Shown here: positions 898 to 23,420 of the stretch, in pieces
Layout of the letters: each line of letters opens with the position of its first letter
Numbering within the stretch: the first letter of the stretch is position 1
Origin: an archaeon
GTDB lineage: Archaea > Nanobdellota > Nanobdellia > Pacearchaeales > GW2011-AR1
Length of the DNA stretch: 64,000 nucleotides
Reading direction: 5' to 3'
NCBI GenBank assembly: GCA_018651605.1
Contig: JABIDS010000010.1
Location: 32,053 to 96,052 of the forward strand
The notes under the pieces: model-generated
Told to the model about the DNA's origin: nothing
Seen by the model: the letters and a program-made list of their open reading frames with translations, nothing else
The model's database searches: none
Made by a program: the position numbers and the translations under genes

Positions 898-3800
898 TTA
901 ATTTTTCTTCAAAGCTTCAAAAATCTCTTCAAGCATTTCTTCATCTGAATCAAAATTCTTTTTTAGTATTTCTTTATTATTAATAATAACTTTTCCACCA
1001 TCCTTAGTAATTTTAACTAATTCCTTTAGTCCTCCAACATACCCCAATCCCGCATCAATAAATTCCCTATCTTTAGTAATCCACCTTCCCAACCCATCAT
1101 TAAAATTATATTTATAATAAGTACGTGAACCAAAAAATAACCACGCAGGATTGTAAAGAGTTATTCTAACTCCTTCCCTTAACATCTCATCAGACCAAAC
1201 AATTTTAGTTTCAATAACTTCTTCTCCCCCTTCAACTACCTCTTCTTCTCCACTAACCTCCTCCCCTTCAACCACCTCATCTCCGACCTCTCCACCATCA
1301 ACTACCTCTCCTTCCACAACCTCATCTCCACCAACATCTAAATCCCCTCCACTATCACTAACAACTTCTCCATCATTCAAATCCTCAGAAGTATCTTCAA
1401 TCCATCCATCATTTCTAATCTCAACATCCAAAAGGTTTGAAGCAACTTTATTGTAAAGTTTACCAAACCAATAAAGCCCCCGAGCCCTATAAACATTATT
1501 CACACCAAGTTCAGTCAAAAGTTCCAAATCATCAACAATACTTTTAATTTTTTCTTCAACACTTGCCTCACTCTCTCCTTTTTTAATAATCAAACCATTC
1601 ACAGAACTTTCAATTTTATTAGCCAAACTTGCACTTTCAGAACCAACAAGATAATCAACATCTCCAAAAATATCTTTCAATTCAACATTCTCTAAAATTT
1701 CATTTTCAATCCCCTTATCTCTAACAACATCTTTAACAGAATCACTATCCAACCAACATTTAACAGAAGGATCATCACAATAACCAACTTCTTTCCACCT
1801 ACTAGAAAGAGAAGACTCCTCACGATATTCTCCATTAGTAACTTGTTTACCAGGATTATCTGTAGCACAAACCCTTATAATCCCTCGAGAATAAAGTTCA
1901 GAATTCAAAAAATCCTCAACACCTGCTTGAATATTGGGATTAATCAAAGAAAGCGCAGAAGGAGTTCCAGCAACACAATTTTTCTCAGAAATAATATTAG
2001 CATCAATCTGTCCTTGAACATATTCATCATTTATTCTATTAATTGCATAAGAAGTTGAAACCTTACCAAAACCACATTCCTCACGACCATTAACACTAAC
2101 ACACAATTGTTTAAATCCCGTAGGAGCACTAAAATCTCTTGTCTTATCAACCTGACCCCCCCTTGCAACATAACCTCTATCAACATTATAATATCCAGTC
2201 GTATGAACACTGCCTGCAGAAGTAGGCAAGTCCTTCAAATAAACATTATATTGAGCACCAATATCTTTTCCAGCAAAAATATGAAAGTAAACCTTATAAT
2301 GAGAAAGGGCAGGAACAGTTGCACTAGTTAATTGACTTTCACTAAACCAAGCATGATATTGAACAGGACTATCTGGTTCTATTAGTGCCTCAAAAAAACC
2401 AGCAGAGCCAGGAACAGTTTGAGAAATAAAAGACTTGCAAACATCACTTCCTATTTCAGTTGTTGAACGAGCATTAAATGCTCTCACAGAATTAACAGCA
2501 TATTCATTTTTGAAATATCCAATAGCATTCTGAGTATTTTGCCAAGCAGATTGAATAACACTATATTCTCCACCACCACGAACCTGCCCATATGCTCCAG
2601 CAAGCAATCTTGGAACCAAAACTTCTAAAAAAGGTGCAGCTTGTTTCCAAAAAAATTCACAAACATAAATACTTTTAATTTCATCACAAACTCCAATATT
2701 CCTTCCAGTATTAACACTTTCATTTAAACAATCCACAGTTGAATTCAAAATACTTATGTAACCTTCTAATCCTGCATGAACACCTGTTAAACAAATAGGA
2801 ACAGCAATACCTTCCTTATAATTTGGCAAACATAAAACCAAACTTCCAATAATTCCTGTTTGCATTACATTATCTACCCTATATTTTCCTCCCAAATCAC
2901 ATCTTGAAGCAGGACAAACAACAGGATCACAAACATTAAACAAAAGATTACAATCAGAAATACTCATGAAATCTGTACACCTCCCAGATTCACCACCAAA
3001 AGAAGTCCCACTATCAAAAGTTTTACCATTAATTGTAATTCTCTCTCTTCCATATTGTTTAGCAGCCTCTGCAATAGCTCTCTGCGCTTTATCAATCAAT
3101 TTTTTAGAATCTCCAATACTCATTCCAGGAAAATTAATCTCTGCACCAGTTCTTTCATTATAATATCTACAAACATCATCTCCACTTTTCTTAAACTCAA
3201 TTAAACCATTCTCACCAACATTACAAATATAATAATTAACAACTCTTCCAGACTCGTCATAAGGTTTTCCAAAACCACTCAAAACATAAGTCATTTCAAC
3301 ATACCAACCATTCTCAACATCAAAAGGAACTTCTGCAGGCAAACCTTTATACGGTTCTCTATCAAAATATTTAACTTTTAACCTATCCACACCCTGAATC
3401 CTATTATTATAACCAATATCATTATCTTGTTTTAATCTATCCATTCCAGCTAAACTCATATAATCTCTAACAGATTTTTCAGCATCTCCTTCAAGTTTCT
3501 CTCCAGTTGAGACAATATAAATATCTCCTTCAGGATGATATTCTCCACCAGCCCTTTCAACCCTATTAACTTCAACAATAACTTCCTTACCACTCACAGT
3601 TTCATTAGCCGTAAAAATCTCCTTACCAAAAACTTTACTCGAAGGAATATAAATCCTCACAACCCTATTTCCAGTTTCAAAATTTTTATAAATATCATGA
3701 CTTTTATCTCCCTTAGTAATTGTTTTAATATCTCCATAAGTTACAGAATCTCCAAAAGCATTAGTCGCCTTAATCCCTAAATTTTTATAATTCTCATTAG

Positions 3801-6612: not shown

Positions 6613-8483
6613 CCAAACGCCACCCCCACATTTCCATCTTTAACTCTCTGATAATTACCTTGCAAATCTTCAACCTTTGAAGGAATACCAAAATCATCAA
6701 CACTAAGAATCAATTTATTAGAACCACTCAACTCACTTTCACTAACATAATAATTATTAGTTCCCCCTCCAGAAATACCGCTCTCAATATTTTGCTCAGG
6801 AACTTCCATATTAAAACATTTTTCTTCCGTAAAACCAAACACTCCTGCAACACCACTTTTAGGAACATCAACACATTTCAAACTACTATCTCCTTCTAGC
6901 TTCATATTAACATCACTATAAACATAAACTTGAACTTCATACTGCCCACCTGACAATTTAATCTTTTTTTGTTCAGGATATGCAAGAGTAACTTTACTCT
7001 CTCCATCAAATGTAACAATAGCCCGGCTATTTGAACCAATATTCATTTCTAAATCCAACTCATATTCTTTATCCAATACAATATCTACAACACCACCCTC
7101 AACACTATCCATTAAATATTTTTCAGTTTTGTAACCCTCTGCACTAGCAATTAAATAACCATTAACACATTGAGGAAACTTTTCAGTCAAGATAGCATTA
7201 TCACCAACAATCTTGCTCTCACCAATCTCACAACTACTATCAAAACACTTAAACTTAATTCTTGCCTCCACAGGCTCCAAATTACTATTATAAGTATAAA
7301 CATCAAATTCACTATTCTTATGTTCACATAGTTCTGGAATAACGTCAGGCAATCCTTCAACATCTAATGCTTCTCTTGGTTTATTTTTATCAATCATAAC
7401 AACAACTGGAAACTGAAACATTTCATTTCCTGAATACAACTGAACCAAAACTGGAAAAGCAAAATCATAAACAAAATGATAAGGAGCATAACAAAAGCCC
7501 ATCATTTCCAAACCTTCTTGATTTCCAATAGGATCTGCTCGGATAATTCCTCCATCAGAAGGCCAAACTTCCATTTTCATAGGCCAATTAGGTGAATACA
7601 TGAAATTAACATTAGTATCAACATCCTCTCCAATATCTCTAACAAAATATTTATTTTCAGAAGATTTCAAATCATAATAATCTCCTTTAATTTTAATTGC
7701 AGGAACATTTGCTTCCAAAGCATCAATCATTCCCCTTCTCACTCCATCAACCTCCCAAATTTTTGGAACACAACTAATTTCAGTTCCATCAACAGGAGCA
7801 TACAATCTCAAAATATCCACACCATAATTCTCCAAAAACATTTCATCTTTATTATTCAAATAAATCTTCTTAGCTAAATCATAAAACTTACCAATGCTGG
7901 ATTGAACATTATCTGAATGACTCTCCCCAGTCCAACTACTTTCACCAAAACTAATCTTTATCCTTTGCTTAACTTCAAAATTAATTTTATCTTTATCTAT
8001 CTCAATATCCACTCCAACTTTTTCATTATCTAATTCAACCTCAAACCCATTTTTTTCAAAATAACTAAAATCACAAAGAACAACACCGCCTTCAACAAAA
8101 TCTTCTAATTGACTCTCCATTTTACCTTCACTAGGAATTTGCTCTTTTTTAATTCCGTTTCCAGAAACATAATACCAATAAGGAATTCCCAAACCCATAA
8201 AACCTAAATGAGATGAAAAAGGCATATACTCACTTCCTGGAGAAAAATCAGGACTTTCAATATAACCTCCTTGTTCCCCCAAAATCCTAGCACCATTAGA
8301 AACTTCATTTTCAATACAACTTAAATAATAATTATAAACAGGCTCTAATTCTGCAGGAACATTAGCAAAAGAAAAACTAGCCCTAAAAATAAAAAATAAA
8401 ACAATCCCAGTAACAATAACTAATGCAAGAATAATAAAAACACTCACTTGCCCCTTAGAATCTTTCATTTTCAAATCACGCAT
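6609..8483 (-). CDS. Large extracellular protein with class III (type IV pilin-like) N-terminal signal
   Basis: The ORF-track start at 8513 is a TTG, so I prefer the ATG at 8483. The N-terminus MRDLKMKDSKGQ/VSVFIILALVIVTGIVLFFIF is a basic leader, then KG, then a roughly 20-aa hydrophobic helix. The rest of the protein is soluble and beta-rich in appearance. Confidence 0.7.
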   Translation of the reverse strand: MRDLKMKDSKGQVSVFIILALVIVTGIVLFFIFRASFSFANVPAELEPVYNYYLSCIENEVSNGARILGEQGGYIESPDFSPGSEYMPFSSHLGFMGLGIPYWYYVSGNGIKKEQIPSEGKMESQLEDFVEGGVVLCDFSYFEKNGFEVELDNEKVGVDIEIDKDKINFEVKQRIKISFGESSWTGESHSDNVQSSIGKFYDLAKKIYLNNKDEMFLENYGVDILRLYAPVDGTEISCVPKIWEVDGVRRGMIDALEANVPAIKIKGDYYDLKSSENKYFVRDIGEDVDTNVNFMYSPNWPMKMEVWPSDGGIIRADPIGNQEGLEMMGFCYAPYHFVYDFAFPVLVQLYSGNEMFQFPVVVMIDKNKPREALDVEGLPDVIPELCEHKNSEFDVYTYNSNLEPVEARIKFKCFDSSCEIGESKIVGDNAILTEKFPQCVNGYLIASAEGYKTEKYLMDSVEGGVVDIVLDKEYELDLEMNIGSNSRAIVTFDGESKVTLAYPEQKKIKLSGGQYEVQVYVYSDVNMKLEGDSSLKCVDVPKSGVAGVFGFTEEKCFNMEVPEQNIESGISGGGTNNYYVSESELSGSNKLILSVDDFGIPSKVEDLQGNYQRVKDGNVGVAFG

Positions 8484-8610
8484 TTTTCTTACCCTTTTTA
8501 ACCTTATTTTCAATTAATTTAATAATTTCAGTATTAATATCTTTTTCATTACTATCTTTAAACTTTTCCCATAATTCAGAATCTTCTATCAAAAGCAAAT
8601 ATTTTTTCAT
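8476..8610 (-). CDS. Small ribbon-helix-helix (CopG/Arc-like) protein, 44 aa
   Basis: This ORF is below the ORF-track cutoff. The ATG is at 8610, and the TGA at 8476-8478 overlaps the downstream ATG (ATGCGTGA). The translation is MKKYLLLIEDSELWEKFKDSNEKDINTEIIKLIENKVKKGKKNA, which fits a beta-strand plus two helices. It is a paralog of the ORF at 32825-32965. Confidence 0.45.
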   Translation of the reverse strand: MKKYLLLIEDSELWEKFKDSNEKDINTEIIKLIENKVKKGKKNA

Positions 8611-8787
8611 TTTAGTCTTTTCAAAATGTTAGCATTTTACACCCCAATTCCCCTTTTCTTTTTCATTTTACACCCAATCTCCCTTTTTCTTTACATTACT
8701 AAAAACATACACTATTTAAATCTTTCTTATTAACTTAGTAACTTACTTAGTAACTAAGAACAACATAAGAAACCTAAAAAGAATAAA

Positions 8788-8858
8788 TGGTCCTACCAAG
8801 AATCGAACTTGAGATTTATCCACGTCAAGGATACGTTTTGCCACTAAACTATAGGACC
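8788..8858 (-). tRNA. tRNA-Val (anticodon GAC)
   Basis: The reverse complement folds as a cloverleaf: acceptor GGTCCTA/TAGGACC, D stem GTTT/AAAC, anticodon stem TATCC/GGATA with loop TTGACGT, and T arm TCAAG-TTCGATT-CTTGG. CCA is not encoded. Confidence 0.85.
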
Positions 8859-8898
8859 CTATTATAGGATTAAAATCTTAATTTTTAAAACCTTTGTT

Positions 8899-9180
8899 TT
8901 AAATCCTTCTCTTTCCAATTTTCCCACCTTTAACCTGCCCCCAATTCCCTCTAACAAACTCAACATCCAATTCTCTAACATCAATCTTAGCCAACCTACA
9001 TAAATCTTCAAAAAATTCCGCATCCATCAATCTCCGCTCAACATAATAATTTTTCAAACTAGAATATTTAACATCAAAACCAAACTGTAAAATTCCTCTC
9101 AATGAAATACAACCCAATCTAGCCACAACTAAATCCAAAAATTTTCTCTGCATTCCTTTCTTAAACAACACTCTATCCAT
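8899..9180 (-). CDS. Hypothetical small protein (possible HTH)
   Basis: The ORF-track start at 9273 would overlap the divergent L44e gene, so I chose the internal ATG at 9180 (MDRVLFKKGMQRKF...). There is no diagnostic motif. Confidence 0.45.
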   Translation of the reverse strand: MDRVLFKKGMQRKFLDLVVARLGCISLRGILQFGFDVKYSSLKNYYVERRLMDAEFFEDLCRLAKIDVRELDVEFVRGNWGQVKGGKIGKRRI

Positions 9181-9248
9181 AAATAACTCCGACACCATCA
9201 ACATCCAAAACTTTAAAAACCCTTTCATCAACCAATTATTATACGAAA

Positions 9249-9563
9249 ATGAAAGTACCAAAAAAAACACCAAGATTTTGCCCCAAATGCAAAAAAAGAA
9301 CAGAACAAAAAATAGACTTAGTTAGTACAGGTGGTAAAAGAGGAACTTTAAAACGAGGTTCAATCGCACGTTCAAAATTAAGAAACGCTTCACCAGGTAA
9401 AGGAAACCAAGGAAAAAGAAGTAGAAAAGCAATCAAAAACTGGAAAAGAAAAACAAAAACAACTACAAGAAAAGTTTTAATCTATACATGTCAAGAATGC
9501 AAAAAATCAAAACATGCTAAAAAATCCAGAAGAGTATCTAAATTAATTGTAGGAGATAAATAA
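9249..9563 (+). CDS. rpl44e: 50S ribosomal protein L44e (eL42)
   Basis: The protein is very basic. It carries the zinc-ribbon pairs CPKCKK...CQECKK and the N-terminus MKVPKKTPRFCPKCKKRTEQKI typical of L44e. Confidence 0.85.
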   Translation: MKVPKKTPRFCPKCKKRTEQKIDLVSTGGKRGTLKRGSIARSKLRNASPGKGNQGKRSRKAIKNWKRKTKTTTRKVLIYTCQECKKSKHAKKSRRVSKLIVGDK

Positions 9564-9645
9564 GATGATATTAAAATATAGGAGAACCATACAAACTTCG
9601 AAGAAGCTTTCTTTAGGGAAGATATATAAACTAAAAGGAGGATGC

Positions 9646-9671
9646 ATCCAAGGAACCTTGGTTCCTTGGAT
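9646..9671 (+). promoter_or_regulatory. GC-rich nested palindrome/hairpin in the S3Ae leader
   Basis: ATCCAAGGAACC-TT-GGTTCCTTGGAT has perfect 12-nt arms. It is preceded by the overlapping palindrome GGATGCATCC and lies 15 nt upstream of the S3Ae ATG. Confidence 0.35.
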
Positions 9672-9686
9672 TAGGTGTCTTAGATA

Positions 9687-10646
9687 ATGGCAAAAAAACC
9701 AAAAACAACAAAAGTAATATCAAGAAGAAAAAAATTCATAAAAGTAGAAGTTCCCTTAGCAAAATCAACAATTGAACTAATTGGTTCATCACCTGAAGAA
9801 ATTCAGGGAAGAACAATAAAACTAGACTTAACAAGACAATTAAAAGGAAAATCAGTAGAAGCAACCGTTAAGATAAAAACAGAAAACGAAAAACCGATAG
9901 CAAAACCAATCAAACTAAAGCTTATGCCTTATTTCATAAGAAGAATGATAAGAAAAAGAATAAGCTATGTTGAAGATTCTTTTGAAACACCTTCACAAGA
10001 AAGCATGATAAAAATAAAACCTTTCCTAATCACAAGAAAAAGAGTATCAAGAGTTGTAAGAAAAACTCTCAGAAATAAATGTAAAAACTGGATAGAAGAT
10101 TACATTGCAGAAAGAAAAGACGACGAAATTTTCAACGAAGTTTTATCAAATAGAATGCAGAAACCATTATCTCTAATGTTAAAGAAAACATATCCTCTTT
10201 CGCTATGTGAGATAAGAGTTTTAGAAGTAAAAAGAACCTTAGAAAAAGATGAAATACCAAAAATAAAACCAAAACCAAAAAAAGTAGAACAAAAAGAAGA
10301 AATAGAACAAGGTTTAGATCAATTAGCAGAAATAGAAGAAGAAAAAAAGAAAGCAGAAGAAGAAATAAAACAAGCTCAAGAAAAAGCAGTTAAAAAGGAA
10401 GAACAAGAAGAGAAAGATAAAATAACAGAAGTAAAAGATTCTGCAAAATTACTTACTTCAGAATCAGCGGCGCTTTCAGAATCCAAAAAGGATTCTGAAC
10501 ACAAATCAGATTCTGAACCAGCTACTAAAGAAATAAAAGAAGCTAAAGAAAAAACTAAAGAAAAAGAAACTACCACTAAAGAAAAACCTAAAAAAGAAAA
10601 AACACCTGCAGGTGTACCTTCTGAAGGCAAGGAGAAAAAAGAATGA
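9687..10646 (+). CDS. rps3ae: 30S ribosomal protein S3Ae (eS1) with ~130-aa K/E-rich C-terminal extension
   Basis: The N-terminal roughly 185 aa (KKFIKVEVPLAKSTIELIG...IKLKLMPYFIRRMIRKR...CEIRVLEV) match the S3Ae family pattern. A long lysine/glutamate tail follows and ends in TPAGVPSEGKEKKE. Confidence 0.85.
   Translation: MAKKPKTTKVISRRKKFIKVEVPLAKSTIELIGSSPEEIQGRTIKLDLTRQLKGKSVEATVKIKTENEKPIAKPIKLKLMPYFIRRMIRKRISYVEDSFETPSQESMIKIKPFLITRKRVSRVVRKTLRNKCKNWIEDYIAERKDDEIFNEVLSNRMQKPLSLMLKKTYPLSLCEIRVLEVKRTLEKDEIPKIKPKPKKVEQKEEIEQGLDQLAEIEEEKKKAEEEIKQAQEKAVKKEEQEEKDKITEVKDSAKLLTSESAALSESKKDSEHKSDSEPATKEIKEAKEKTKEKETTTKEKPKKEKTPAGVPSEGKEKKE
10602..10631 (+). repeat. In-frame 30-nt module copy 1 (TPAGVPSEGK) in S3Ae
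   Basis: The sequence is ACACCTGCAGGTGTACCTTCTGAAGGCAAG. The first 14 nt are a perfect palindrome. Confidence 0.8.
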
Positions 10647-16711: not shown

Positions 16712-17113
16712 CTAATTTTCTTCCCTTATCAGTTCAGAAGAAGACTGTATTTTCTCTCCCAAACCATCAACAATTTCAATCCCTAATTCTTTACAAACAG
16801 GAGTTTCAGGGATTTCATAAGCAAATCTATCTCCCCCTTTAGCAAGAATATCCGGCCTCACAGCCCTCAAACTCTTACAAACACTCTTATCTTCATCAAT
16901 ACTGACAAAAACCTCATCAACCATCTCCAAAGCCTCCAAAATAACTTTCCTCTCCTCCAAGGGCATAAATGACTTCCCCTTTTTCAAAACAGCCTGCTTA
17001 TCATTATTCAATATAACAATTAGTTTATCTCCCAAAGCCCTAGCCAACCTAAAACACTCAATATGTCCAACATGCAAAGGATCATAATAACCAGAGACAA
17101 CCACAACTTTCAT
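16712..17113 (-). CDS. Cytidylyltransferase-family nucleotidyltransferase (HxGH)
   Basis: I use the ATG at 17113 (MKVVVVSGYYDPLHVGHIECF...). The HxGH motif and the roughly 130-aa size fit the TagD/RfaE-II/RibL-like fold. Confidence 0.7.
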   Translation of the reverse strand: MKVVVVSGYYDPLHVGHIECFRLARALGDKLIVILNNDKQAVLKKGKSFMPLEERKVILEALEMVDEVFVSIDEDKSVCKSLRAVRPDILAKGGDRFAYEIPETPVCKELGIEIVDGLGEKIQSSSELIREEN

Positions 17114-17223
17114 TTTAAAAACTAGGGACAAATCCTTTTAAATCTTAAGTATTCAAAATAATCAATTAAACATAACAAAGTTTTTGCTATAATCCTTATA
17201 AGCTTATTTTAATTAATGAAGTA

Positions 17224-17949
17224 ATGACTAAAAAAGATAAGATAAAAAGAAGATTAATAAGGGCAGAAAAGAAAAGAAAAAAACAAATTCCTGAGCCCAA
17301 AAGTTGGGTATTTGGTTTTGATGAAACAAATAATGGTTTTCATATAAAACCCAAAAACCCCTACTTTAAAACATCTCTAGTAGTAACTGGATACGCAACA
17401 GAAGATTTAGGGAGGGCAAATTATGGAAGCGAACCTTATGAACGAAAAGGCCACAATTATACAAAAAGAAATCTTCCAAAAACATTAGAAAAATGTAGAG
17501 AATATTTATCAAAACATCCAACATTTCTTTATACAACTATCTCAAAAGAAAATGCAAAAATTTATCCATTATCCAGACTAAAAGCTGACGCAATAGCACT
17601 TTTAACCCTAAGTTTATTTTTAAAATATCCCACAATAGACCCACAAAGAACTAAAATAATTATGGATGAGATGGGGGGAAGAAAAAGTTCAGAAGAAGTT
17701 GATCAAGGATTAGAACAATGGCTTAAAAAAACAGAATTACAAATACCTCACAAGATAAAAAGAGAAGCAGACGAAAAGACTATTGCAGTTAGGAAAGCAG
17801 ACAGAATAGGACATTATATCACTGCAATACATCATTTTGGAACAAACAATAAATGGCCCTATAGAAACAAAAGAATATCTTTTGATTCATTAGGAGAAAC
17901 AATAATAAGATTTTTAGAAAGAGACGAAATAGACTATCCTGAACCATAG
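17224..17949 (+). CDS. Hypothetical protein, weak RNase H-like (RNase HII/DUF3800-like) motifs
   Basis: GFDETNNG, IIMDEMGG and EADEKTIAVRKADRIGHY loosely recall the DE...D...AD carboxylate pattern of RNase HII/DUF3800. The similarity is not strong. Confidence 0.4.
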   Translation: MTKKDKIKRRLIRAEKKRKKQIPEPKSWVFGFDETNNGFHIKPKNPYFKTSLVVTGYATEDLGRANYGSEPYERKGHNYTKRNLPKTLEKCREYLSKHPTFLYTTISKENAKIYPLSRLKADAIALLTLSLFLKYPTIDPQRTKIIMDEMGGRKSSEEVDQGLEQWLKKTELQIPHKIKREADEKTIAVRKADRIGHYITAIHHFGTNNKWPYRNKRISFDSLGETIIRFLERDEIDYPEP

Positions 17950-17991
17950 AAATCTTTTTAACACCTACTTTTTTCTCTAAACTACTAAAAG

Positions 17992-19617
17992 GTGAAAATG
18001 GCAATCTACTCTCATTCAAAATTATCTTCATTTGAACAATGCCCTCTTAAATTTAAATTCAGATACATAGAAAAATTAAAACCAGACATTGAAAACACAA
18101 TAGAAGGATTCTTAGGAACAAAGGTTCACGACACCTTAGAATGGATTTACAACGAAATATTAAAGAATCAACATAAAGAATTTGAATTAGATGAAATAAT
18201 AAAATATTATGCAATTTCATGGAACAATGATTACACAGAAGACATAAAAATAGTAAAAAAAGAATTCACAACAGAACATTATTTCAACAAAGGAATAAAA
18301 TTCTTAATTGATTATTTCACTACTCATAAACCCTTCAAAGACAATACAATAGAAACAGAAAAAAGAATATTCTTAACATTAAATGATGGAAACAAAATAA
18401 TAGGATACATAGATAGACTCACACACAATAGGGAAACAAACATACTAGAAATTCATGATTACAAAACCTCAAACTCAATGAAATCTCAAACAGAATTAGA
18501 CAAAGACCGACAACTAGCACTTTATTCCTTGGCAATAAAACAATTATTTCCAAACGCAACAGATGTTCATCTGGTTTGGCATTTCTTAAATTTCAACAAA
18601 AAAGTAACTTCAAAAAGAACTTACGAACAATTAGAACAACTAAAACAAGACATAATACAATTAATTAAAAAAATAGAATCAACAACAGAATTTCCTCCTT
18701 GTAAGAGCGCATTATGTGGATGGTGCGAATACCAAAGTTATTGCCCACTAATACAACAAGAACAAATAATGCAACAAGAGAATAAACAAAAAGAATTTCA
18801 AAAAACATTAGATCTCTCTTCAAAAATAAATTTAAAAAATCCTAAAATCCTAGTAGCAAGTCCAACTTATGATGGCATGGAATATTGTCACAACGAATTC
18901 TTTAATCAAATAAAAAATTTAGATTATAAAAATTACGACCTATTAATAATAGACAATTCCAGAAACAATAAATATTTCAAGAAATTAAAAAAAGAAAATA
19001 TTTTAACAATAAAAGACAACACTCAAGAAGATAAGAATTCTTTGAGATTAGTAAGTAGCAGAAATAAAATCCTAAAATATGCTCAAGAAAATAGATATGA
19101 TTACATCCTAATGCTAGATTCAGATGTAATTCCTCCAAAAAATATAATAGAAGGATTATTAGAATGCAAAAAAGACATCGTTAGTGGGATATATTTTAAT
19201 CAGTTTAATGTTTCAGGAAAACCAGAAATTCATCCTGTTGCATATAAGTGTTTAACAGAGGAAGAATTTGAAGAAATGAAAGAAAAAGTAAACTTCCCTC
19301 CCAATGTTAAATCCCATTTAGATATAAAATATCATTTGACAAAAGAAGATACAGACAGCAAGAAGCTCCTAGAAGTCTTTATTCCTTCTGCAGGTTGCAT
19401 GTTAATTTCAAGGAAAGTTTTTGAAGAAGTAAGATACGGCCTAGTAGACACTACCAATGCAGACAATATACAAACAAGCGACGATATATATTTTATGTTA
19501 AGGGCAAAGGAATTAGGATTTAAAATTTACTGCCATACAGGATTAAAATGCGAACATTTAGTAGAAGGAAAATTCAGAAAAGATAAAAATAAATTAGTTC
19601 ATCCATTTTACGATTAA
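17992..19617 (+). CDS. Fusion protein: Cas4/RecB-like PD-(D/E)XK nuclease (N) + family-2 glycosyltransferase (C)
   Basis: The N-terminal half has YSHSKLSSFEQCPLKFKFRYI, GYIDRL...ILEIHDYKTS (D..ExK), RQLALYSLA and the CGWCEYQSYCP Cys cluster. The C-terminal half has ILVASPTYDG...LLIIDNS...MLDSDVIPP...SDDIYF, a GT-A/DxD pattern. It is one continuous ORF. Confidence 0.7.
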   Translation: MKMAIYSHSKLSSFEQCPLKFKFRYIEKLKPDIENTIEGFLGTKVHDTLEWIYNEILKNQHKEFELDEIIKYYAISWNNDYTEDIKIVKKEFTTEHYFNKGIKFLIDYFTTHKPFKDNTIETEKRIFLTLNDGNKIIGYIDRLTHNRETNILEIHDYKTSNSMKSQTELDKDRQLALYSLAIKQLFPNATDVHLVWHFLNFNKKVTSKRTYEQLEQLKQDIIQLIKKIESTTEFPPCKSALCGWCEYQSYCPLIQQEQIMQQENKQKEFQKTLDLSSKINLKNPKILVASPTYDGMEYCHNEFFNQIKNLDYKNYDLLIIDNSRNNKYFKKLKKENILTIKDNTQEDKNSLRLVSSRNKILKYAQENRYDYILMLDSDVIPPKNIIEGLLECKKDIVSGIYFNQFNVSGKPEIHPVAYKCLTEEEFEEMKEKVNFPPNVKSHLDIKYHLTKEDTDSKKLLEVFIPSAGCMLISRKVFEEVRYGLVDTTNADNIQTSDDIYFMLRAKELGFKIYCHTGLKCEHLVEGKFRKDKNKLVHPFYD

Positions 19618-19618
19618 A

Positions 19619-21541
19619 ATGTGGTCATTATATAAAAACAATCAATTACTACCTCCTCTAAAATTTTCAAACAACAAAACTCAGGAAGATTTAGTAAAAG
19701 AAATAATAACTGCAGTTGAACAAGGAAATAAAATAATTTTTCTAAAAGGAATGTGTGGAACAGGAAAATCTGCAATCGCATTAAATCTAGCAAGGCATTT
19801 TGGTAAAACATCTATCGTAGTTCCAATAAAATCTCTCCAAGAACAATACACAAAAGATTATACTAAAAATATGCATGTTCTAGATAAAAACAATGAACAA
19901 AAATTAAAAATATCATCAATATTTGGAAGAGCAAATTTTAAATGCAAATTTTTAGAACAAAATGCTCCTCCAGATATAAATAGATATTACAAAGAAAAAA
20001 ACACAAAACTCAGCGATATATTCGCAGGAGTAAATATCAAACAAAGTAATGAAAAGGACAAATCTTGTAACAACAATTTTCTTCCGTGCAAAATAGAAAT
20101 AAAAGAAAAAAATCTCCCAAGAATAAAAGATTACCTTAAACAAAATCCCTCAGTAAGTATAACTAATTTTGATTCAATTTCAGATGTAAAAAGAATGACT
20201 ATCGCCCCTGTCTGCCCATATTGGTCACCAATATTTCCAGACGATTTTGAAATCAAAAAATTCAAAGATGCAAATAAAATAAAATACAAAGGACTTAATG
20301 GAAAAAACTTCACAATTTATCAAAGAAAACCTGGTTGTGGATATTATGACCAATATGCAACTTACGACAACTCAGATGTATTTATCTTCAATAGTCCAAA
20401 ATACAAGGTAGAAACACTCATGAACAGAAAACCTGCAACAGAACTTGAAATAATAGACGAATGTGATGAATTTTTAGACAGCTTCGCAAACATAGAACAA
20501 ATAAATCTAAGCAGACTTTTATTCGCACTAGGATTTGTTTTTGCAGATGATGAAGAATCAAAAGGAATAATCAAAGATTTAGAATACATAACAAATCAAC
20601 TAAAAAAACAATACAGAGAACCTACAACAGAAATAAACGAAATCAAAAATACATTAATTTGCGATTTACTCAAAAAAATACTAAAAAACAATTCCCTTTT
20701 AGATGAAATAGAAATCGACGACTCCAACTATCTCTATCACTTAGATGAAGTCGCAAGAATTTTTATGGAATTCTTAAATGAAACATTTTTTTCAATAGAA
20801 AAAAGAGATAATGATATAATAATCCAATTAGTAACAACAAATTTAGAAAAAAGATTCAAAGAATTAACAGAAAAAAATAAAGTTTTCATAATGATGAGCG
20901 GAACAATTCATTCAGAAAATGTTTTAGAAAATATTTTTGGTATAACTGATTTTAAGATAATTGACGCAGAAACAGAGCATCAAGGCGAATTAATTCCCTG
21001 CAGACACGGATATGAGATAGATTGCAAATACGCTAACTTTCAATCACAAAAAGTTTCAAGAGAACAATATCTTAAGGCCCTATCAAAAACAATAACTTGT
21101 GCAAAAAAACCAGCATTAGTTCATGTAAATAGTTTTTCAGATCTTCCAACAGATATAGAAAAAATAAACCTCAACATAGATAACTTACCAACCTCTCATG
21201 AACTAATAACAAAACAATCTCAAGATCCCTTAGGACAAAGAGTAATTGACTTCAAAAACAAAAAAATAAACATATTATTCACAACAAAATGCAACAGAGG
21301 TGTAGACTTCCCAGGAGATATTTGCAACAGTATAATCTTAACAAAATTCCCCTATCCAAACATCTCTTCAATATTCTGGAAAGTTCTAAAAAGAAACAAA
21401 CCAACTTACTTCATGAGTTTTTACATGGATAAAGCAAGAAGAGAACTACTCCAAAAAGTTTATAGGGGTTTAAGATCAAAAACAGACAGAGTTTATCTTC
21501 TTTCTCCAGATAGCAGAGTTTTAGATGCTAAAATAAACTAA
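19619..21541 (+). CDS. XPD/Rad3/DinG-family helicase-like protein
   Basis: It has Walker A GMCGTGKS, the DEAH-like box IIDECDEF and four Cys between motifs I and II (CKF..CNNNFLPC..CPYW), which could bind an Fe-S cluster. It also has MMSGT, RGVDFPGD and YRGLRSKTD. The gene starts 1 nt after the upstream stop. Confidence 0.7.
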   Translation: MWSLYKNNQLLPPLKFSNNKTQEDLVKEIITAVEQGNKIIFLKGMCGTGKSAIALNLARHFGKTSIVVPIKSLQEQYTKDYTKNMHVLDKNNEQKLKISSIFGRANFKCKFLEQNAPPDINRYYKEKNTKLSDIFAGVNIKQSNEKDKSCNNNFLPCKIEIKEKNLPRIKDYLKQNPSVSITNFDSISDVKRMTIAPVCPYWSPIFPDDFEIKKFKDANKIKYKGLNGKNFTIYQRKPGCGYYDQYATYDNSDVFIFNSPKYKVETLMNRKPATELEIIDECDEFLDSFANIEQINLSRLLFALGFVFADDEESKGIIKDLEYITNQLKKQYREPTTEINEIKNTLICDLLKKILKNNSLLDEIEIDDSNYLYHLDEVARIFMEFLNETFFSIEKRDNDIIIQLVTTNLEKRFKELTEKNKVFIMMSGTIHSENVLENIFGITDFKIIDAETEHQGELIPCRHGYEIDCKYANFQSQKVSREQYLKALSKTITCAKKPALVHVNSFSDLPTDIEKINLNIDNLPTSHELITKQSQDPLGQRVIDFKNKKINILFTTKCNRGVDFPGDICNSIILTKFPYPNISSIFWKVLKRNKPTYFMSFYMDKARRELLQKVYRGLRSKTDRVYLLSPDSRVLDAKIN

Positions 21542-22164
21542 CTCTCTCCAACATTATCCTCAGAATTAAAAAATTGCCCAATAGAATAAAATCCCCTTAA
21601 AACAAATTCAACAATAAAGATAAATACAATAAACATCAAAATATTATTAAACAAGGCAGGAATCTCCACAATCTTTGCAATCAAATTACTTACATCAAAA
21701 AAGTTTTCACCTAAAATAAAAGTAGCCAAAACAGTAAATGGCAAAATCTTAGCCAAATCTTTTGATAAATCTTCACTAACATAAGCAGTTATTCTTGTGG
21801 ACGCAATTATCGCCGCACTAACTAAAAGAACTTGTTCAGCACCTTGTTCAGATAAAAGCAATAAAAACAAAGAAAGTATTGCAAACCAAAACAAAACCAA
21901 AAAAGGAAGTATCACTAAATACTCCACAGTATAAAGTCCAATAGCAAAAAACTTCTCTAGACCTGGATGATTAGAATAATTATACTGTTTCAAATTCAAT
22001 TGAATAATCTCCTTACTCGCAAGAAACTTATAAAATTTCCAAATAAAAATCGCATAAAGCGCAATAAAAATAGTATAAAGCAAAAGACTAATCAGAACCT
22101 TATAATCCTCTGGCACACTATCAAAGATAGATTGAATATAATTTGAAATAAAATCTAATATCAT
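21538..22164 (-). CDS. Hypothetical membrane protein (208 aa)
   Basis: It has several long hydrophobic segments. Its end overlaps the helicase gene convergently by 4 nt. Confidence 0.5.
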   Translation of the reverse strand: MILDFISNYIQSIFDSVPEDYKVLISLLLYTIFIALYAIFIWKFYKFLASKEIIQLNLKQYNYSNHPGLEKFFAIGLYTVEYLVILPFLVLFWFAILSLFLLLLSEQGAEQVLLVSAAIIASTRITAYVSEDLSKDLAKILPFTVLATFILGENFFDVSNLIAKIVEIPALFNNILMFIVFIFIVEFVLRGFYSIGQFFNSEDNVGES

Positions 22165-22225
22165 GTTTGCACCTCTTAAAGTATAAAATAAATCTTTAGT
22201 TATAAATGTTTCTTAAAATAAAATC

Positions 22226-22636
22226 TTATCTAAACGACTTCTGCCTTTTCTTTCTAGCCTTTGAATCACCAGGTTTATTCGCTTCTTTTCTTCGAGTATC
22301 TGCAACCATTAAATTCTTATCATATCTAACATACGTCTTTTTTAATTCATCAGATTTTGTAAATGCAACAATAGCTCTTGCAATAGCTAAACTAGAAGCT
22401 TCAATTCTACTTTCAGAACCTCCACCACGAACATTAACAGCGATATCAAAATCAACCTTACCCAAAACTTTCTTAGCAATTTCCAAAGGCTCCTGAATCA
22501 TTAATTTCTTAAAAAAATCCAAATTCTCATAAGGAATCTTATTAATCGTAACTTTTCCATCACCTTTCTTAATCATAGCTTTTGCTATAGCAGTTTTTCT
22601 CTTTCCACTCACAACAAGATTTTTTTCAATTACCAT
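22226..22636 (-). CDS. rps9: 30S ribosomal protein S9 (uS9)
   Basis: GKRKTAIAKA...VNVRGGGSESRIEASSLAIARAIV...RRKEANKPG...KSFR is the S9 signature. Confidence 0.9.
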   Translation of the reverse strand: MVIEKNLVVSGKRKTAIAKAMIKKGDGKVTINKIPYENLDFFKKLMIQEPLEIAKKVLGKVDFDIAVNVRGGGSESRIEASSLAIARAIVAFTKSDELKKTYVRYDKNLMVADTRRKEANKPGDSKARKKRQKSFR

Positions 22637-23040
22637 TATAATTTCTCCACCAACTCCTTTAATGTAATATATTTTAATTTATTAGGTGCACTAATTTTCA
22701 TCATTTTCTTATCTTTAAATTCTTCAGGAATACCATCATGACATTTAACCCTCAAAAAAGCTTGCTTTCCAATTCCTCTTCTATGGTCTGGCAACATTCC
22801 TCGAATTCCTCGCTTTAACAACATATATGCAACTCTTCCATGCTTAGGCCCTTTTTGCGAATGCCCACCTTTAGCTTTTAAAACTCTATATTTCTCAATA
22901 GTATCTTTTTTATTTCCAGTAATAATAACTTTCTCAGAATTCACAATAACAATCTCCCCACCTTCCAAAGCTTTCTTAGCAACAAAGCTACAAAGTCTTC
23001 CAAAAACTGCCCCACTTCCATCAATAATTATCTCACTCAT
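22636..23040 (-). CDS. rpl13: 50S ribosomal protein L13 (uL13)
   Basis: IIDGSGAVFGRLCSFVAKKAL...KGGHSQKGPKH...LKRGIRGMLP matches the L13 pattern, and the gene is syntenic with S9. Confidence 0.9.
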   Translation of the reverse strand: MSEIIIDGSGAVFGRLCSFVAKKALEGGEIVIVNSEKVIITGNKKDTIEKYRVLKAKGGHSQKGPKHGRVAYMLLKRGIRGMLPDHRRGIGKQAFLRVKCHDGIPEEFKDKKMMKISAPNKLKYITLKELVEKL

Positions 23041-23420
23041 ATTACTTCAACCCCTTCCAATTTATTATTACTTTCAATCTCATCCTTAATACTCTTAACC
23101 TCACATCCAGCCTTTTTCAACTTTTCTCTTGCTTGTTCTGAAAATCCAAGAGCACTAACCTTAATCTTTCTATTAACTTCACCTTGCCCCAAAACCTTTC
23201 CAACAACCATAATCTTATCAGTCTTGCCCTCAGAGGGTACACCTGCAGGTGTGGCATCATTCAATCCATCCAAATTAATCTTAGTATACTGACTAGCCGG
23301 TGCACTCAATCTTTTACCTAAATCCAAAAGCCCATGTTTCTTAGCCAACAAAACAGTCTCAACTATTTCAGGATTCCGTTTCTTCTTTAATCTTTTATCT
23401 ATTTGTGTTTTTGATATCAT
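23037..23420 (-). CDS. rpl18e: 50S ribosomal protein L18e (eL18) carrying a ~10-aa insertion
   Basis: KTQIDKRLKKKRNPEIVETVLLAKK...INLDGL[NDATPAGVPSEGKTDK]IMVVGKVLGQGEV matches L18e. The position between RpoD and L13 fits the conserved archaeal order. Confidence 0.85.
   Translation of the reverse strand: MISKTQIDKRLKKKRNPEIVETVLLAKKHGLLDLGKRLSAPASQYTKINLDGLNDATPAGVPSEGKTDKIMVVGKVLGQGEVNRKIKVSALGFSEQAREKLKKAGCEVKSIKDEIESNNKLEGVEVI
23223..23252 (-). repeat. In-frame 30-nt module copy 2 (TPAGVPSEGK) in L18e
   Basis: The coding-strand sequence is ACACCTGCAGGTGTACCCTCTGAGGGCAAG. It is 28/30 identical to copy 1. Confidence 0.8.

What the first reader, a model, noticed from the sequence alone, without database searches (positions are those of the whole stretch)
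17224..21541. Cas4-like PD-(D/E)XK nuclease fused to a GT2 glycosyltransferase, coupled to an XPD/DinG-like Fe-S helicase and a weak RNase H-like ORF
The ORF at 17992-19617 has a complete Cas4/RecB-type nuclease core: N-terminal Cys, GYIDRL...EIHDYKTS, QxxxY and CGWCEYQSYC. It continues without a stop into a GT-A glycosyltransferase domain (IIDNS, DSD, SDD). I know of no described nuclease-glycosyltransferase fusion. One nucleotide downstream starts a 640-aa superfamily-2 helicase with DECD, a four-Cys insert and RGVDFPGD, which fits the XPD/DinG type. Upstream is a 241-aa protein with DE/D/AD carboxylates reminiscent of RNase HII/DUF3800. Nuclease plus helicase gene pairs are the core of many anti-phage or repair systems. 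An attached sugar transferase raises the possibility of nucleic-acid glycosylation or self/non-self marking. A more mundane alternative is an accidental fusion of a repair gene with a cell-wall gene.
Basis: partly seen in the sequence, partly recalled or inferred. Interest (0 to 1): 0.62.

Follow-up and report, generated by a model that had tools for sequence, protein, structure and literature searches.

The report
Sugar-transferase gene inserted into repair operon
In one population of a tiny symbiotic archaeon (Pacearchaeota), an ordinary free-standing sugar-transferase gene has recently landed between a DNA nuclease gene and its partner helicase gene and now reads through as one nuclease-sugar-transferase protein; the fusion is real, but it looks like a young accident and not a new DNA-marking system.

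Summary
ORF 17998-19617 (539 aa from its ATG) joins a complete Cas4/AddB-type Fe-S PD-(D/E)XK nuclease to an intact GT-A glycosyltransferase. A DinG/XPD-type Fe-S helicase starts 1 nt after its stop. The upstream 241-aa ORF is a divergent RNase HII-like protein.

The functional reading is not supported. No other nuclease-GT fusion appeared among 5.8 billion protein clusters or 48 congeneric genomes. The nuclease is in 47 of 48 congeners and the helicase in 45 of 48, usually adjacent and sometimes fused (about 920 aa, the "EndoDinG" architecture). The two closest relatives have nuclease, an 8-nt spacer and helicase, with no GT. The GT belongs to a family of more than 150 stand-alone 255-300-aa Pacearchaeota/Nanoarchaeota proteins. 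Congeners that have it carry it at other, mutually different loci. The same spacer holds unrelated inserts in seven other congeners.

Best reading: a conserved repair or replication module (RNase HII-like, nuclease, helicase) with a recent passenger insertion of 772 nt bounded by TAAAAT.

Earlier notes of this scan described EndoDinG fusions on other DNA. None described this fusion.

The parts
17224..17949 (+). orf241: divergent RNase HII-like protein (D33-E34, D148, D183; RKAD193). Accessory first gene of the module.
   Evidence: No Pfam, NCBIfam, PHROG or PADLOC hit. A family of about 65 representatives exists. The family profile hits RNase HII 1eke at E=9.5e-8 with catalytic motifs aligned. 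Foldseek on a weak model (pLDDT 61) puts 1eke at rank 2, E=0.033. The gene is present in 8 of 49 genus genomes, always immediately upstream of the nuclease.
17998..19617 (+). Chimeric ORF, 539 aa: nuclease + linker + glycosyltransferase. An alternative GTG start lies at 17992.
   Evidence: The exact 539-aa sequence is on record on further contigs.
17998..18756 (+). Cas4/AddB-type PD-(D/E)XK nuclease domain with a four-Cys Fe-S signature (C15, C240, C243, C249).
   Evidence: PDDEXK_1 4e-32, Cas_Cas4 9e-7. Cas4 models 8e-12. Motifs located. 59-76% identical to the stand-alone or helicase-fused nucleases of 47 of 48 congeners.
18757..18837 (+). Low-complexity Q/K/N-rich linker derived from the nuclease tail. 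...NKQKEFQKTL aligns with the tail ...NKKRTAQKTL* of G070. The only in-frame ATG is at 18769 (codon 258).
   Evidence: GC content is 21%. The GT family's own start codon is missing: a TTA sits at that position.
18837..18848 (+). AAATCCTAAAAT: 12 nt identical to the spacer plus start-codon context of the GT-less relative G070. The same bases encode the conserved N-P-K-I of the GT N-terminus. This is the 5' junction microhomology.
18849..19620 (+). Inferred inserted segment, 772 nt: the GT ORF from about its 4th codon through its stop plus 1 nt. TAAAAT bounds it at 18843-18848, and it ends in TAAAAT at 19615-19620.
   Evidence: Comparison with the empty site in G070...TAAATCCTAAAATGTGGTC.
18838..19617 (+). 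GT-A fold glycosyltransferase domain (GT2/Anp1-like; DSD at aa 374-376).
   Evidence: Glycos_transf_2 at 29.6 bits. 60% identical to stand-alone 255-300-aa GTs. All family invariants are kept. AF2 model pLDDT 92. Foldseek PDB hits: COLGALT1 2e-11 and Mnn9 5e-10. Foldseek BFVD hit: a small viral GT at 3.7e-20.
19619..21541 (+). DinG/XPD-family SF2 helicase, 640 aa. Walker A at aa 47-51, DECD at 280-283, four Cys (109, 150, 157, 199) that mark a putative Fe-S domain.
   Evidence: Helicase_C_2 9.5e-16 and ResIII 5e-7. PADLOC DinG model 1e-38. YoaA 3e-12 and DinG 1e-9, both below cut-off. phrog_2488 3e-37. Orthologue in 45 of 48 congeners. It is the only Helicase_C_2 protein in the genome.

Best explanation
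The locus is a conserved Pacearchaeota DNA-processing operon. A Cas4/AddB-type Fe-S nuclease and a DinG/XPD-type Fe-S helicase are its core, and in a subset of lineages an RNase HII-like paralogue precedes them.

In some relatives the nuclease and helicase form one polypeptide, which is the 'EndoDinG' architecture. By analogy they most likely act together: the helicase unwinds 5'-3' and the nuclease cuts the displaced strand or flap, and the RNase HII-like protein deals with RNA-DNA hybrids. This role is inferred, not shown.

In the window's lineage only, after it split from relatives about 76-80% identical, a stand-alone accessory glycosyltransferase ORF was inserted into the roughly 8-nt nuclease/helicase spacer. 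The join was probably made by illegitimate recombination at a 12-nt microhomology (AAATCCTAAAAT). The insert lacks its own start codon and no stop remains upstream, so the nuclease now reads through a 27-residue low-complexity linker into the GT. The helicase start is kept 1 nt after the GT stop.

Both halves look catalytically intact. The GT is most probably a passenger that still does its usual non-DNA sugar transfer, or is on its way to being lost. It is probably not a new nucleic-acid-glycosylating partner of the nuclease.
For: The fusion is real.
- The identical 539-aa ORF sits on two further assemblies made with different assemblers, and both cross both junctions.

The fusion is unique.
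- No hit covers more than 53% of the fusion among the listed hits from 5.8 billion clusters.
- In 48 congeners the nuclease and GT matches are never contiguous.

An empty site exists in the closest relatives.
- The JGI contig with an orf241 80% identical has CTP-transferase | orf241 | nuclease 267 aa | helicase 640 aa | membrane protein | S9 | L13.
- G070 has nuclease-TAA-ATCCTAAA-ATG-helicase.

The module is conserved.
- Nuclease in 47 of 48 congeners and helicase in 45 of 48.
- In about 30 congeners the two hits lie 270 nt or less apart on one strand.
- Fused forms: G009 and P0002-P0010, about 900-930 aa.

The GT is an independent family.
- More than 150 stand-alone 255-300-aa proteins.
- In congeners it lies at other loci, in contexts that differ from genome to genome.
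- G000 has no second copy.

The spacer is an insertion hot spot. It holds a half MFS gene, an RT plus an unknown gene, a GMP-synthase C-terminal fragment, a small ORF, and non-coding inserts in G003, G033, G064, G022, G032, G024 and G025.

The genome context fits housekeeping.
- No NurA, Dna2, canonical XPD N-domain or Cas1 was found in the genome, which is 84% complete.
- This is its only XPD-family helicase.
Against: - Both domains of the chimera keep every catalytic and family-invariant residue, so there is no sign of decay.
- The reading frame is open over a fragile A/T-rich linker in all three assemblies.
- The GT has lost its own start codon, so its expression now depends on the nuclease ORF or on the ATG at codon 258. 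That could be read as a selected fusion.
- The GT's nearest structural neighbours include small viral GT-A proteins of unknown acceptor, so a DNA acceptor is not excluded.
- The ancestral state of the linker cannot be reconstructed exactly, because G070 is only about 76% identical.
- No reads, RNA or protein data were available.
- The repair role of the nuclease-helicase pair rests on analogy with EndoDinG, Dna2 and AddAB and on gene content. No experiment supports it.
Confidence: 0.75

Rival explanations
1. Functional neofusion. The GT is tethered to the nuclease/helicase machine so that it can glycosylate nucleic acid (self/non-self marking or damage tagging) or its protein partners. That would make a new kind of DNA-modifying or defence module.
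For: - Both domains are intact.
- The GT lacks its own start, so it is made as a fusion.
- The helicase stays translationally coupled, with TAA-A-ATG.
- There are weak sub-threshold hits to TET-associated GT (E=0.0096) and to a phage HMC glucosyltransferase PHROG (5.8e-4).
- The closest structural neighbours include small viral GTs.
Against: - The fusion is a singleton in one population. It is absent from 48 congeners and from the closest relatives, which share the same synteny.
- The GT family is otherwise stand-alone and never lies next to nucleases, helicases or base-modification genes in the contexts examined.
- The same spacer collects obviously irrelevant gene fragments in other congeners.
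- The TAGT hit (16.3 bits) is far below its 27.5-bit cut-off.
- The top PDB neighbours are protein and polysaccharide GTs: COLGALT1, Mnn9, GalNAc-T2.
- No PADLOC system was detected.
Confidence: 0.08
2. Artefact. The fusion comes from an assembly chimera, or from a consensus error that hides a stop or frameshift between two ordinary genes.
For: - The linker is A/T homopolymer-rich.
- One fewer T in AATTTAA would recreate an in-frame TAA (inference).
- The independent contigs have only about 3x coverage.
- A 921-bp ENA contig (P0246) diverges from the window at codon 258.
Against: - Three assemblies (the 129-kb contig, a SPAdes contig and a MEGAHIT contig) give the identical ORF across both junctions.
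- Nuclease and GT are in the same frame, so a single indel cannot explain the fusion.
- A chimera would need two precise mis-joins inside an 8-nt spacer.
- The GT has no start codon of its own.
Confidence: 0.05
3. The locus makes three separate products in practice. The GT is translated independently from the internal ATG at 18769, or a fraction of ribosomes or transcripts slip on the A-runs and release a stand-alone nuclease. The covalent fusion would then be a minor or irrelevant species.
For: - An in-frame ATG lies at codon 258, 23 codons upstream of the conserved NPKILV. Some family members have N-terminal extensions of similar length.
- The other two frames hit stops within a few codons in the linker.
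Against: - No recognisable ribosome-binding or promoter signal was tested or seen.
- The nuclease ORF still has no stop of its own, so the full fusion must be made whenever the nuclease is translated in frame.
- Nothing was measured.
Confidence: 0.12

Closest known systems
EndoDinG subgroup of DinG-like helicases (review PMC11981726; Finegoldia magna FmaDinG, PDB 9KQH, PMC13650095)
   Same: An N-terminal PD-(D/E)XK nuclease works with an XPD-family SF2 helicase that carries a four-Cys Fe-S domain. Congeners (G009) and metagenomic relatives (P0002 and others, about 920 aa) have exactly this single-chain order. FmaDinG is an Mn-preferring endonuclease plus 5'-3' helicase and is proposed to be a coordinated DNA-processing machine.
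   Different: - Here the two parts are separate genes, with a GT inserted between them.
- The nuclease is a larger (about 255 aa) Cas4/AddB-type domain with its own four-Cys cluster. FmaDinG's nuclease domain is small, with catalytic residues at 40-90, and the only Fe-S site described lies in the helicase.
- No sequence match to any PDB chain was obtained with phmmer or a family profile. Common descent with bacterial EndoDinG is therefore not shown.
- The host is a DPANN archaeon. The family was defined in bacteria.
Solo-Cas4 / pfam12705 Cas4-like nucleases of DPANN archaea (Hudaiberdiev et al. 2017, PMC5704561)
   Same: A PD-(D/E)XK nuclease with the Cas4 four-Cys signature, encoded outside any CRISPR locus. 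That paper notes that most DPANN genomes encode solo-Cas4, and that pfam12705 nucleases are repeatedly linked or fused to helicases.
   Different: The helicase partners described there are UvrD-like SF1 and YprA-like SF2. No DinG/XPD partner is mentioned ('DinG' occurs 0 times). No glycosyltransferase fusion is described.
Dna2 and AddAB-type nuclease-helicase machines
   Same: An Fe-S PD-(D/E)XK nuclease is combined with a DNA helicase. For Dna2 the order is also nuclease then helicase. NCBI names one homologue 'Dna2/Cas4 domain-containing protein'. The RNase HII-like neighbour recalls the RNase H2/Dna2/Fen1 division of labour in primer removal; this last point comes from established knowledge and is an inference.
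   Different: The helicase is SF2 XPD-family, not SF1. The Pfam Dna2 model finds nothing in the genome.
Stand-alone GT2/Anp1-like glycosyltransferases of Pacearchaeota/Nanoarchaeota (annotated 'glycosyltransferase', 'GT2 family')
   Same: The C-terminal half is 48-61% identical over its full length to these 255-300-aa proteins. It keeps all their invariant residues and the DSD motif.
   Different: All of the more than 150 relatives are free-standing with their own Met. Only this copy is fused, and it has lost its start codon.
Archaeal RNase HII (M. jannaschii, PDB 1eke)
   Same: The orf241 family profile aligns over about 165 residues and includes GIDExxxG, the central D and the KAD motif.
   Different: The Pfam RNase_HII model finds no hit in orf241. 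The genome has a canonical RNase HII elsewhere. The family is small, about 65 clusters at 50% identity, and in the loci examined it is tied to the nuclease gene.

Membership tests
EndoDinG | PD-(D/E)XK nuclease domain and DinG helicase in one polypeptide, nuclease N-terminal | tested here: not met
   In the window a stop (19615-19617) and a separate ATG (19619) split them, and a GT lies between. The feature is met in congener G009 (923-aa frame) and in P0002-P0010 and P0023.
EndoDinG | XPD/DinG-family SF2 helicase core (Helicase_C_2, Walker A, DExx box) | tested here: met
   PF13307 9.5e-16, above its cut-off. PADLOC DinG model 1e-38 over aa 16-637. GTGKS and DECD located. NCBIfam YoaA and DinG hits are far below their equivalog cut-offs.
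EndoDinG | Four-Cys Fe-S domain inserted in motor domain 1 | tested here: met
   C109, C150, C157 and C199 lie between Walker A and DECD. The corresponding four Cys are invariant in the 8 fused relatives. This is sequence evidence only; cluster binding was not tested.
EndoDinG | Detectable homology to the type member FmaDinG (9KQH) or other solved DinG/XPD | tested here: inconclusive
   phmmer and a profile of 8 fused relatives found no PDB chain at E<=0.01, and only P-loop noise up to E=10.
EndoDinG | Small nuclease domain (H/E/D/E-x-K) without its own Fe-S cluster, as in FmaDinG | tested here: not met
   The window nuclease is a full-length PDDEXK_1 domain (aa 7-252) with C15 + C240xxC243x5C249.
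Cas4 (CRISPR-associated, TIGR00372) | Score above the equivalog cut-off | tested here: not met
   43.4 bits against a cut-off of 65. Pfam Cas_Cas4 scores 29.5 against 22.7, over the C-terminal part only.
Cas4 (CRISPR-associated, TIGR00372) | Encoded in a CRISPR-cas locus with cas1/cas2 | tested here: not met
   No Cas1 (PF01867) was found anywhere in the 84%-complete genome. The neighbours are r-protein, sugar-metabolism and membrane genes.
Glycosyltransferase family 2 / GT-A fold | Pfam GT2 above gathering score, DxD motif, GT-A fold | tested here: met
   PF00535 at 29.6 bits against 23.3. D374-S-D376 is invariant in the family. The AF2 model has pLDDT 92 and matches GT-A enzymes at E down to 2e-11.
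DNA-base glycosyltransferases (TET-associated GT PF20691; phage HMC glucosyltransferases) | Family score above cut-off, and linkage to base-hypermodification genes | tested here: not met
   TAGT scores 16.3 bits against a cut-off of 27.5. phrog_842 gives only 5.8e-4. No such neighbours appear in five contexts of family members. The top structural matches are protein and polysaccharide GTs.
RNase HII (PF01351) | Match to the family model, and the four catalytic carboxylates | tested here: inconclusive
   The Pfam model gives no hit for orf241 or for 45 relatives. The family profile hits 1eke at 9.5e-8, with DE, D and (K/E)AD aligned. The structural support is weak. orf241 is a homologous but distinct family.
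Known anti-phage defence systems (PADLOC-DB v2) | Hits to a defined multi-gene system | tested here: not met
   Only stand-alone Cas4 and type-IV DinG models are hit. orf241 has no hit. No Cas1 is present.

The most novel reading that the evidence does not exclude
The covalent nuclease-GT join is adaptive. The GT, whose nearest structural neighbours include small viral GT-A proteins of unknown acceptor, is delivered by the nuclease/helicase machine to DNA ends or flaps and glycosylates nucleic acid or the repair proteins. That would be the first nuclease-tethered glycosyltransferase.

A milder novel reading has odds of roughly 0.3. The RNase HII-like + Cas4-type nuclease + XPD-type helicase trio would be the DPANN stand-in for Dna2/NurA-HerA-type end and flap processing. 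None of those was detected in this genome.
Probability: 0.07. Interest if true: 0.8.

Novelty: new variant of a known kind. Interest (0 to 1): 0.3.

Why it matters
The headline, a nuclease-glycosyltransferase enzyme, would be exciting if it were functional. The evidence says it is a snapshot of gene birth by accident: an ORF-only insertion into an 8-nt spacer that fuses two unrelated enzymes at once, in a genome so compact that there is no slack.

That snapshot has three uses.
1. It is a clean natural example of how multidomain proteins arise, with the empty site available in a close relative.
2. It shows that the linker between the nuclease and helicase modules of EndoDinG-like machines tolerates splitting, fusion and large insertions.
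3. It points to an archaeal (DPANN) branch of nuclease + DinG/XPD modules. This branch has a Cas4-type Fe-S nuclease and, in some lineages, a dedicated RNase HII-like partner. It may be the main DNA-end or flap-processing system in genomes where no NurA, Dna2 or canonical XPD was found.

Tried and rejected
Independent public assemblies were used instead.
- DNA of the closest GT-less relative (JGI 3300072015): it could not be fetched. The file was too large, and two metagenome scans found nothing. G070 from the genus search served as the empty site.
- Solved structures: PDB sequence searches with the nuclease, the helicase and a fused-family profile gave nothing useful.
- Phages: tblastn of the helicase against phage genomes gave no match, despite the PHROG profile hits.
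- Joint alignment of the fusion with nuclease and GT homologues, for a whole-protein model: MAFFT misaligned the nucleases onto the GT half. It was discarded, and only the GT part was modelled.
- orf241 AF2 model: poor (pLDDT 61), with no significant Foldseek hits. The RNase HII call rests on the profile search.
- Literature: a search for Cas4-glycosyltransferase fusions returned only irrelevant CRISPR reviews.
- Assembly chimera: considered and rejected, because it would need two exact joins in an 8-nt spacer, replicated in three assemblies.
- Ancestral presence of the GT with loss elsewhere: considered and rejected, since 47 congeners lack it at this site.

Full report
**What is there**

The window comes from a roughly 1-Mb, 84%-complete genome of a low-GC DPANN archaeon. 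Source names on homologues say Pacearchaeota/Nanoarchaeota.

Four plus-strand features lie between a cytidylyltransferase-like gene (16712-17131, minus strand) and a membrane protein followed by the S9-L13-L18e ribosomal genes (21538-23420, minus strand):
- orf241, at 17224-17949.
- A 539/541-aa ORF, at 17998 (ATG) or 17992 (GTG) to 19617.
- A 640-aa ORF, at 19619-21541, starting 1 nt after the preceding stop (TAA-A-ATG).

**Domain checks**

Nuclease half of the long ORF:
- It is a full-length PDDEXK_1 domain (aa 7-252, E=4e-32). It also hits the Cas4 models of Pfam, NCBIfam and PADLOC.
- It carries the D139 / E151-D154-x-K156 / QxxxY motifs and the Cas4/AddB four-cysteine signature C15 + C240xxC243x5C249.

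GT half of the long ORF:
- It passes the Pfam GT2 threshold (29.6 against 23.3 bits).
- It is 48-61% identical over its whole length to more than 150 stand-alone 255-300-aa proteins, annotated at most as 'glycosyltransferase'.
- It keeps every invariant residue of that family, including the DSD motif.
- It folds with pLDDT 92 into a GT-A domain.
- Its best solved neighbours are protein- and polysaccharide-directed enzymes: COLGALT1 2e-11, Mnn9, GalNAc-T2, TarP.
- Its best viral neighbours are small GT-A proteins of unknown acceptor, at 3.7e-20.

Helicase:
- It matches Helicase_C_2 (9.5e-16), a PADLOC DinG model over its full length (1e-38), and YoaA/DinG models below their cut-offs.
- It has GTGKS, DECD and four cysteines between them. 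These cysteines are invariant in relatives.

orf241:
- It hits no curated family.
- A profile of 45 members of its small family (about 65 clusters) matches M. jannaschii RNase HII at E=9.5e-8. The GIDExxxG, central Asp and KAD motifs align.
- The genome has a canonical RNase HII elsewhere, so orf241 is a paralogous family.

**Is the fusion real?**

The exact 539-aa protein is nevertheless encoded on two other public contigs:
- ERZ4200981 NODE_7995 (SPAdes, 3683 bp), covering window 17196-20878. Its only three mismatches lie near its end, inside the helicase.
- ERZ27237544 k141_69298 (MEGAHIT, 2107 bp), covering window 17571-19677 at 100% identity.

Both cross the nuclease-to-GT linker and the GT-to-helicase junction. 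The nuclease and GT are in the same frame, and the other two frames close at once. A single indel error therefore cannot create the fusion. I take the fusion as genuine at consensus level.

One loose end remains. A 921-bp ENA contig encodes the nuclease identically up to codon 258 and then diverges (LLL) at its end. It is either an assembly tip or a strain variant.

**Is the association conserved? No.**

- Among the best hits from 5.8 billion protein clusters, none covers more than 53% of the fusion.
- The nuclease is in 47 of 48 congeneric genomes and the helicase in 45 of 48.
- The GT is present in only four congeners (G005, G018, G027, G065). There it lies on another contig or more than 60 kb from the nuclease.
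- GT contexts differ from genome to genome: between SecY and a YidC-like gene, next to an ABC transporter, next to a sugar epimerase, or beside unknown genes.
- The window's genome has no second GT copy.

**The ancestral arrangement**

Relatives show [orf241] - nuclease (253-296 aa, own stop) - short spacer - helicase (MWS...), often directly beside the same membrane-protein and S9 genes.
- In about 30 congeners the two hits are 270 nt or less apart on one strand.
- In G009 and many metagenomic relatives the two are one 900-930-aa protein.

The two closest relatives have the same synteny without the GT:
- A JGI contig whose orf241 is 80% identical: CTP-transferase | orf241 | nuclease 267 aa | helicase 640 aa | membrane protein | S9 | L13.
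- G070, with nuclease 76% and helicase 78% identical...QKTL-TAA-ATCCTAAA-ATG-TGG....

**The junctions**

- The window's nuclease tail ...NKQKEFQKTL aligns with the G070 tail ...NKKRTAQKTL*.
- The window then continues DLSSKINLK, and then NPKILVASPTY, which is the conserved N-terminus of the GT family (M-x-N-P-K-I/V-L-V-A-S-P-T-Y).
- The 12 nt AAATCCTAAAAT (18837-18848) are identical to G070's spacer plus the first bases of its helicase start. The same 12 nt also encode N-P-K-I of the GT.
- At the other end, GATTAAAATGTGGTC shares TAAAATGTGGTC with G070.
- Relative to a G070-like ancestor, the window therefore carries a 772-nt, ORF-only insert (18849-19620) bounded by TAAAAT on both sides.
- The GT's own Met codon is absent; a TTA sits at that position. 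No stop remains upstream.

This points to illegitimate or microhomology-mediated recombination. The exact ancestral linker cannot be reconstructed at 76% identity, so the mechanism is an inference.

**The spacer is an insertion hot spot**

In other congeners the same nuclease/helicase spacer holds:
- a 185-aa half MFS transporter (G003);
- a reverse transcriptase plus an unknown 278-aa gene (G033);
- a 100-aa GMP-synthase C-terminal fragment (G064);
- an 80-aa ORF (G022);
- 0.3-0.5 kb of non-coding DNA (G032, G024, G025).

Three congeners have the helicase inverted. Two carry a LAGLIDADG intein in its Walker A motif. Gene fragments cannot be functional partners, so the GT is best seen as one more passenger at a permissive site.

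**What the module probably does**

- The nuclease + DinG/XPD combination has the architecture named EndoDinG. That lead came from earlier notes of this scan, and I checked it in the papers.
- The review PMC11981726 defines EndoDinG as a DinG with an N-terminal PD-(D/E)XK endonuclease and a four-Cys Fe-S domain.
- PMC13650095 shows that FmaDinG (PDB 9KQH) is an Mn-preferring endonuclease plus a 5'-3' helicase.
- The Pacearchaeota proteins share the order and the helicase features. They differ in having a larger Cas4-type nuclease with its own cluster.
- I could not show sequence homology to any solved DinG/XPD. I therefore call this 'works like EndoDinG', with membership unproven.
- Hudaiberdiev et al. 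(PMC5704561) had noted that most DPANN encode solo-Cas4 and that pfam12705 nucleases pair with UvrD- or YprA-like helicases. They did not describe a DinG partner.
- The genome shows no NurA, Dna2, canonical XPD N-domain or Cas1, and this is its only XPD-family helicase. It is 84% complete, so these absences are provisional.
- The module is near-universal in the genus and sits next to the ribosomal operon. This favours a housekeeping end-, flap- or hybrid-processing role over defence.
- orf241 is present in 8 of 49 genus genomes, always immediately upstream of the nuclease. The same adjacency appears on two metagenomic contigs. A dedicated RNase H-type partner is therefore plausible.

**Verdict**

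- The functional interpretation (DNA glycosylation or defence) is not supported.
- The fusion appears undescribed as a protein architecture. It is a single-population event with no evidence of selection.
- I class the locus as a new variant of a known kind: a split EndoDinG-like nuclease-helicase module with a passenger GT and an RNase HII-like accessory gene. I score interest at 0.3.

Noticed in passing
L032 (G023:C19) 1936-5220; L035 (G015:C10) 1061-4390: The orthologous DinG-like helicase carries a ~450-aa LAGLIDADG intein inserted in the Walker A motif (GTGK|C...). Pfam: Intein_splicing 9e-25, LAGLIDADG_3 7e-15.
   Followed up: partly
L031 (G033:C20) 2469-3473 and 3799-4635: A reverse-transcriptase gene (RVT_1, 1.8e-23) and an unknown 278-aa gene sit between the nuclease and the helicase in one congener. 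The RT type (group II intron, retron or other) was not determined.
   Followed up: no
L030 (G003) 1721-2278; L034 (G064) 2542-2844: Gene fragments occupy the same nuclease/helicase spacer in other congeners: the first half of an MFS transporter and a GMP-synthase C-terminal domain. The reason this spacer collects inserts is unexplained.
   Followed up: partly
L033 (G025:C6) 3731-4330; P0243 (L037 2873-4105): A second 'G-x-DES-x-x-G' protein family sits upstream of the nuclease in G025. In P0243 it occurs as the C-terminal half of a tandem orf241-like protein. It may be another RNase H-like partner.
   Followed up: no
ENA 921-bp contig encoding P0246 (not fetched); corresponds to window ~17998-18771: A 261-aa product is identical to the window nuclease up to codon 258 and then diverges (LLL) at the contig end. 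It is either a strain variant or an assembly tip near the linker.
   Followed up: no
L015 (G005:C1) 5633-8238 vs G000 C4:26500-27750: The slot between SecY and the YidC/EMC3-like gene holds the GT in G005, starting right after the SecY stop. In the window's genome the same slot holds an unrelated ~200-aa ORF. The GT family gene sits at a different locus in nearly every genome that has it.
   Followed up: partly
L036 (G070:C3) 8225-10049: In the closest congener about 1.8 kb lie between the helicase and the membrane-protein gene, which abut in the window. The content of this stretch was not examined.
   Followed up: no
window 18795-18806: An A6 run (CAAAAAAC) lies in the linker. Both alternative frames reach a stop within a few codons, so slippage there would release a stand-alone nuclease of about 280 aa. 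This is purely a sequence observation.
   Followed up: no
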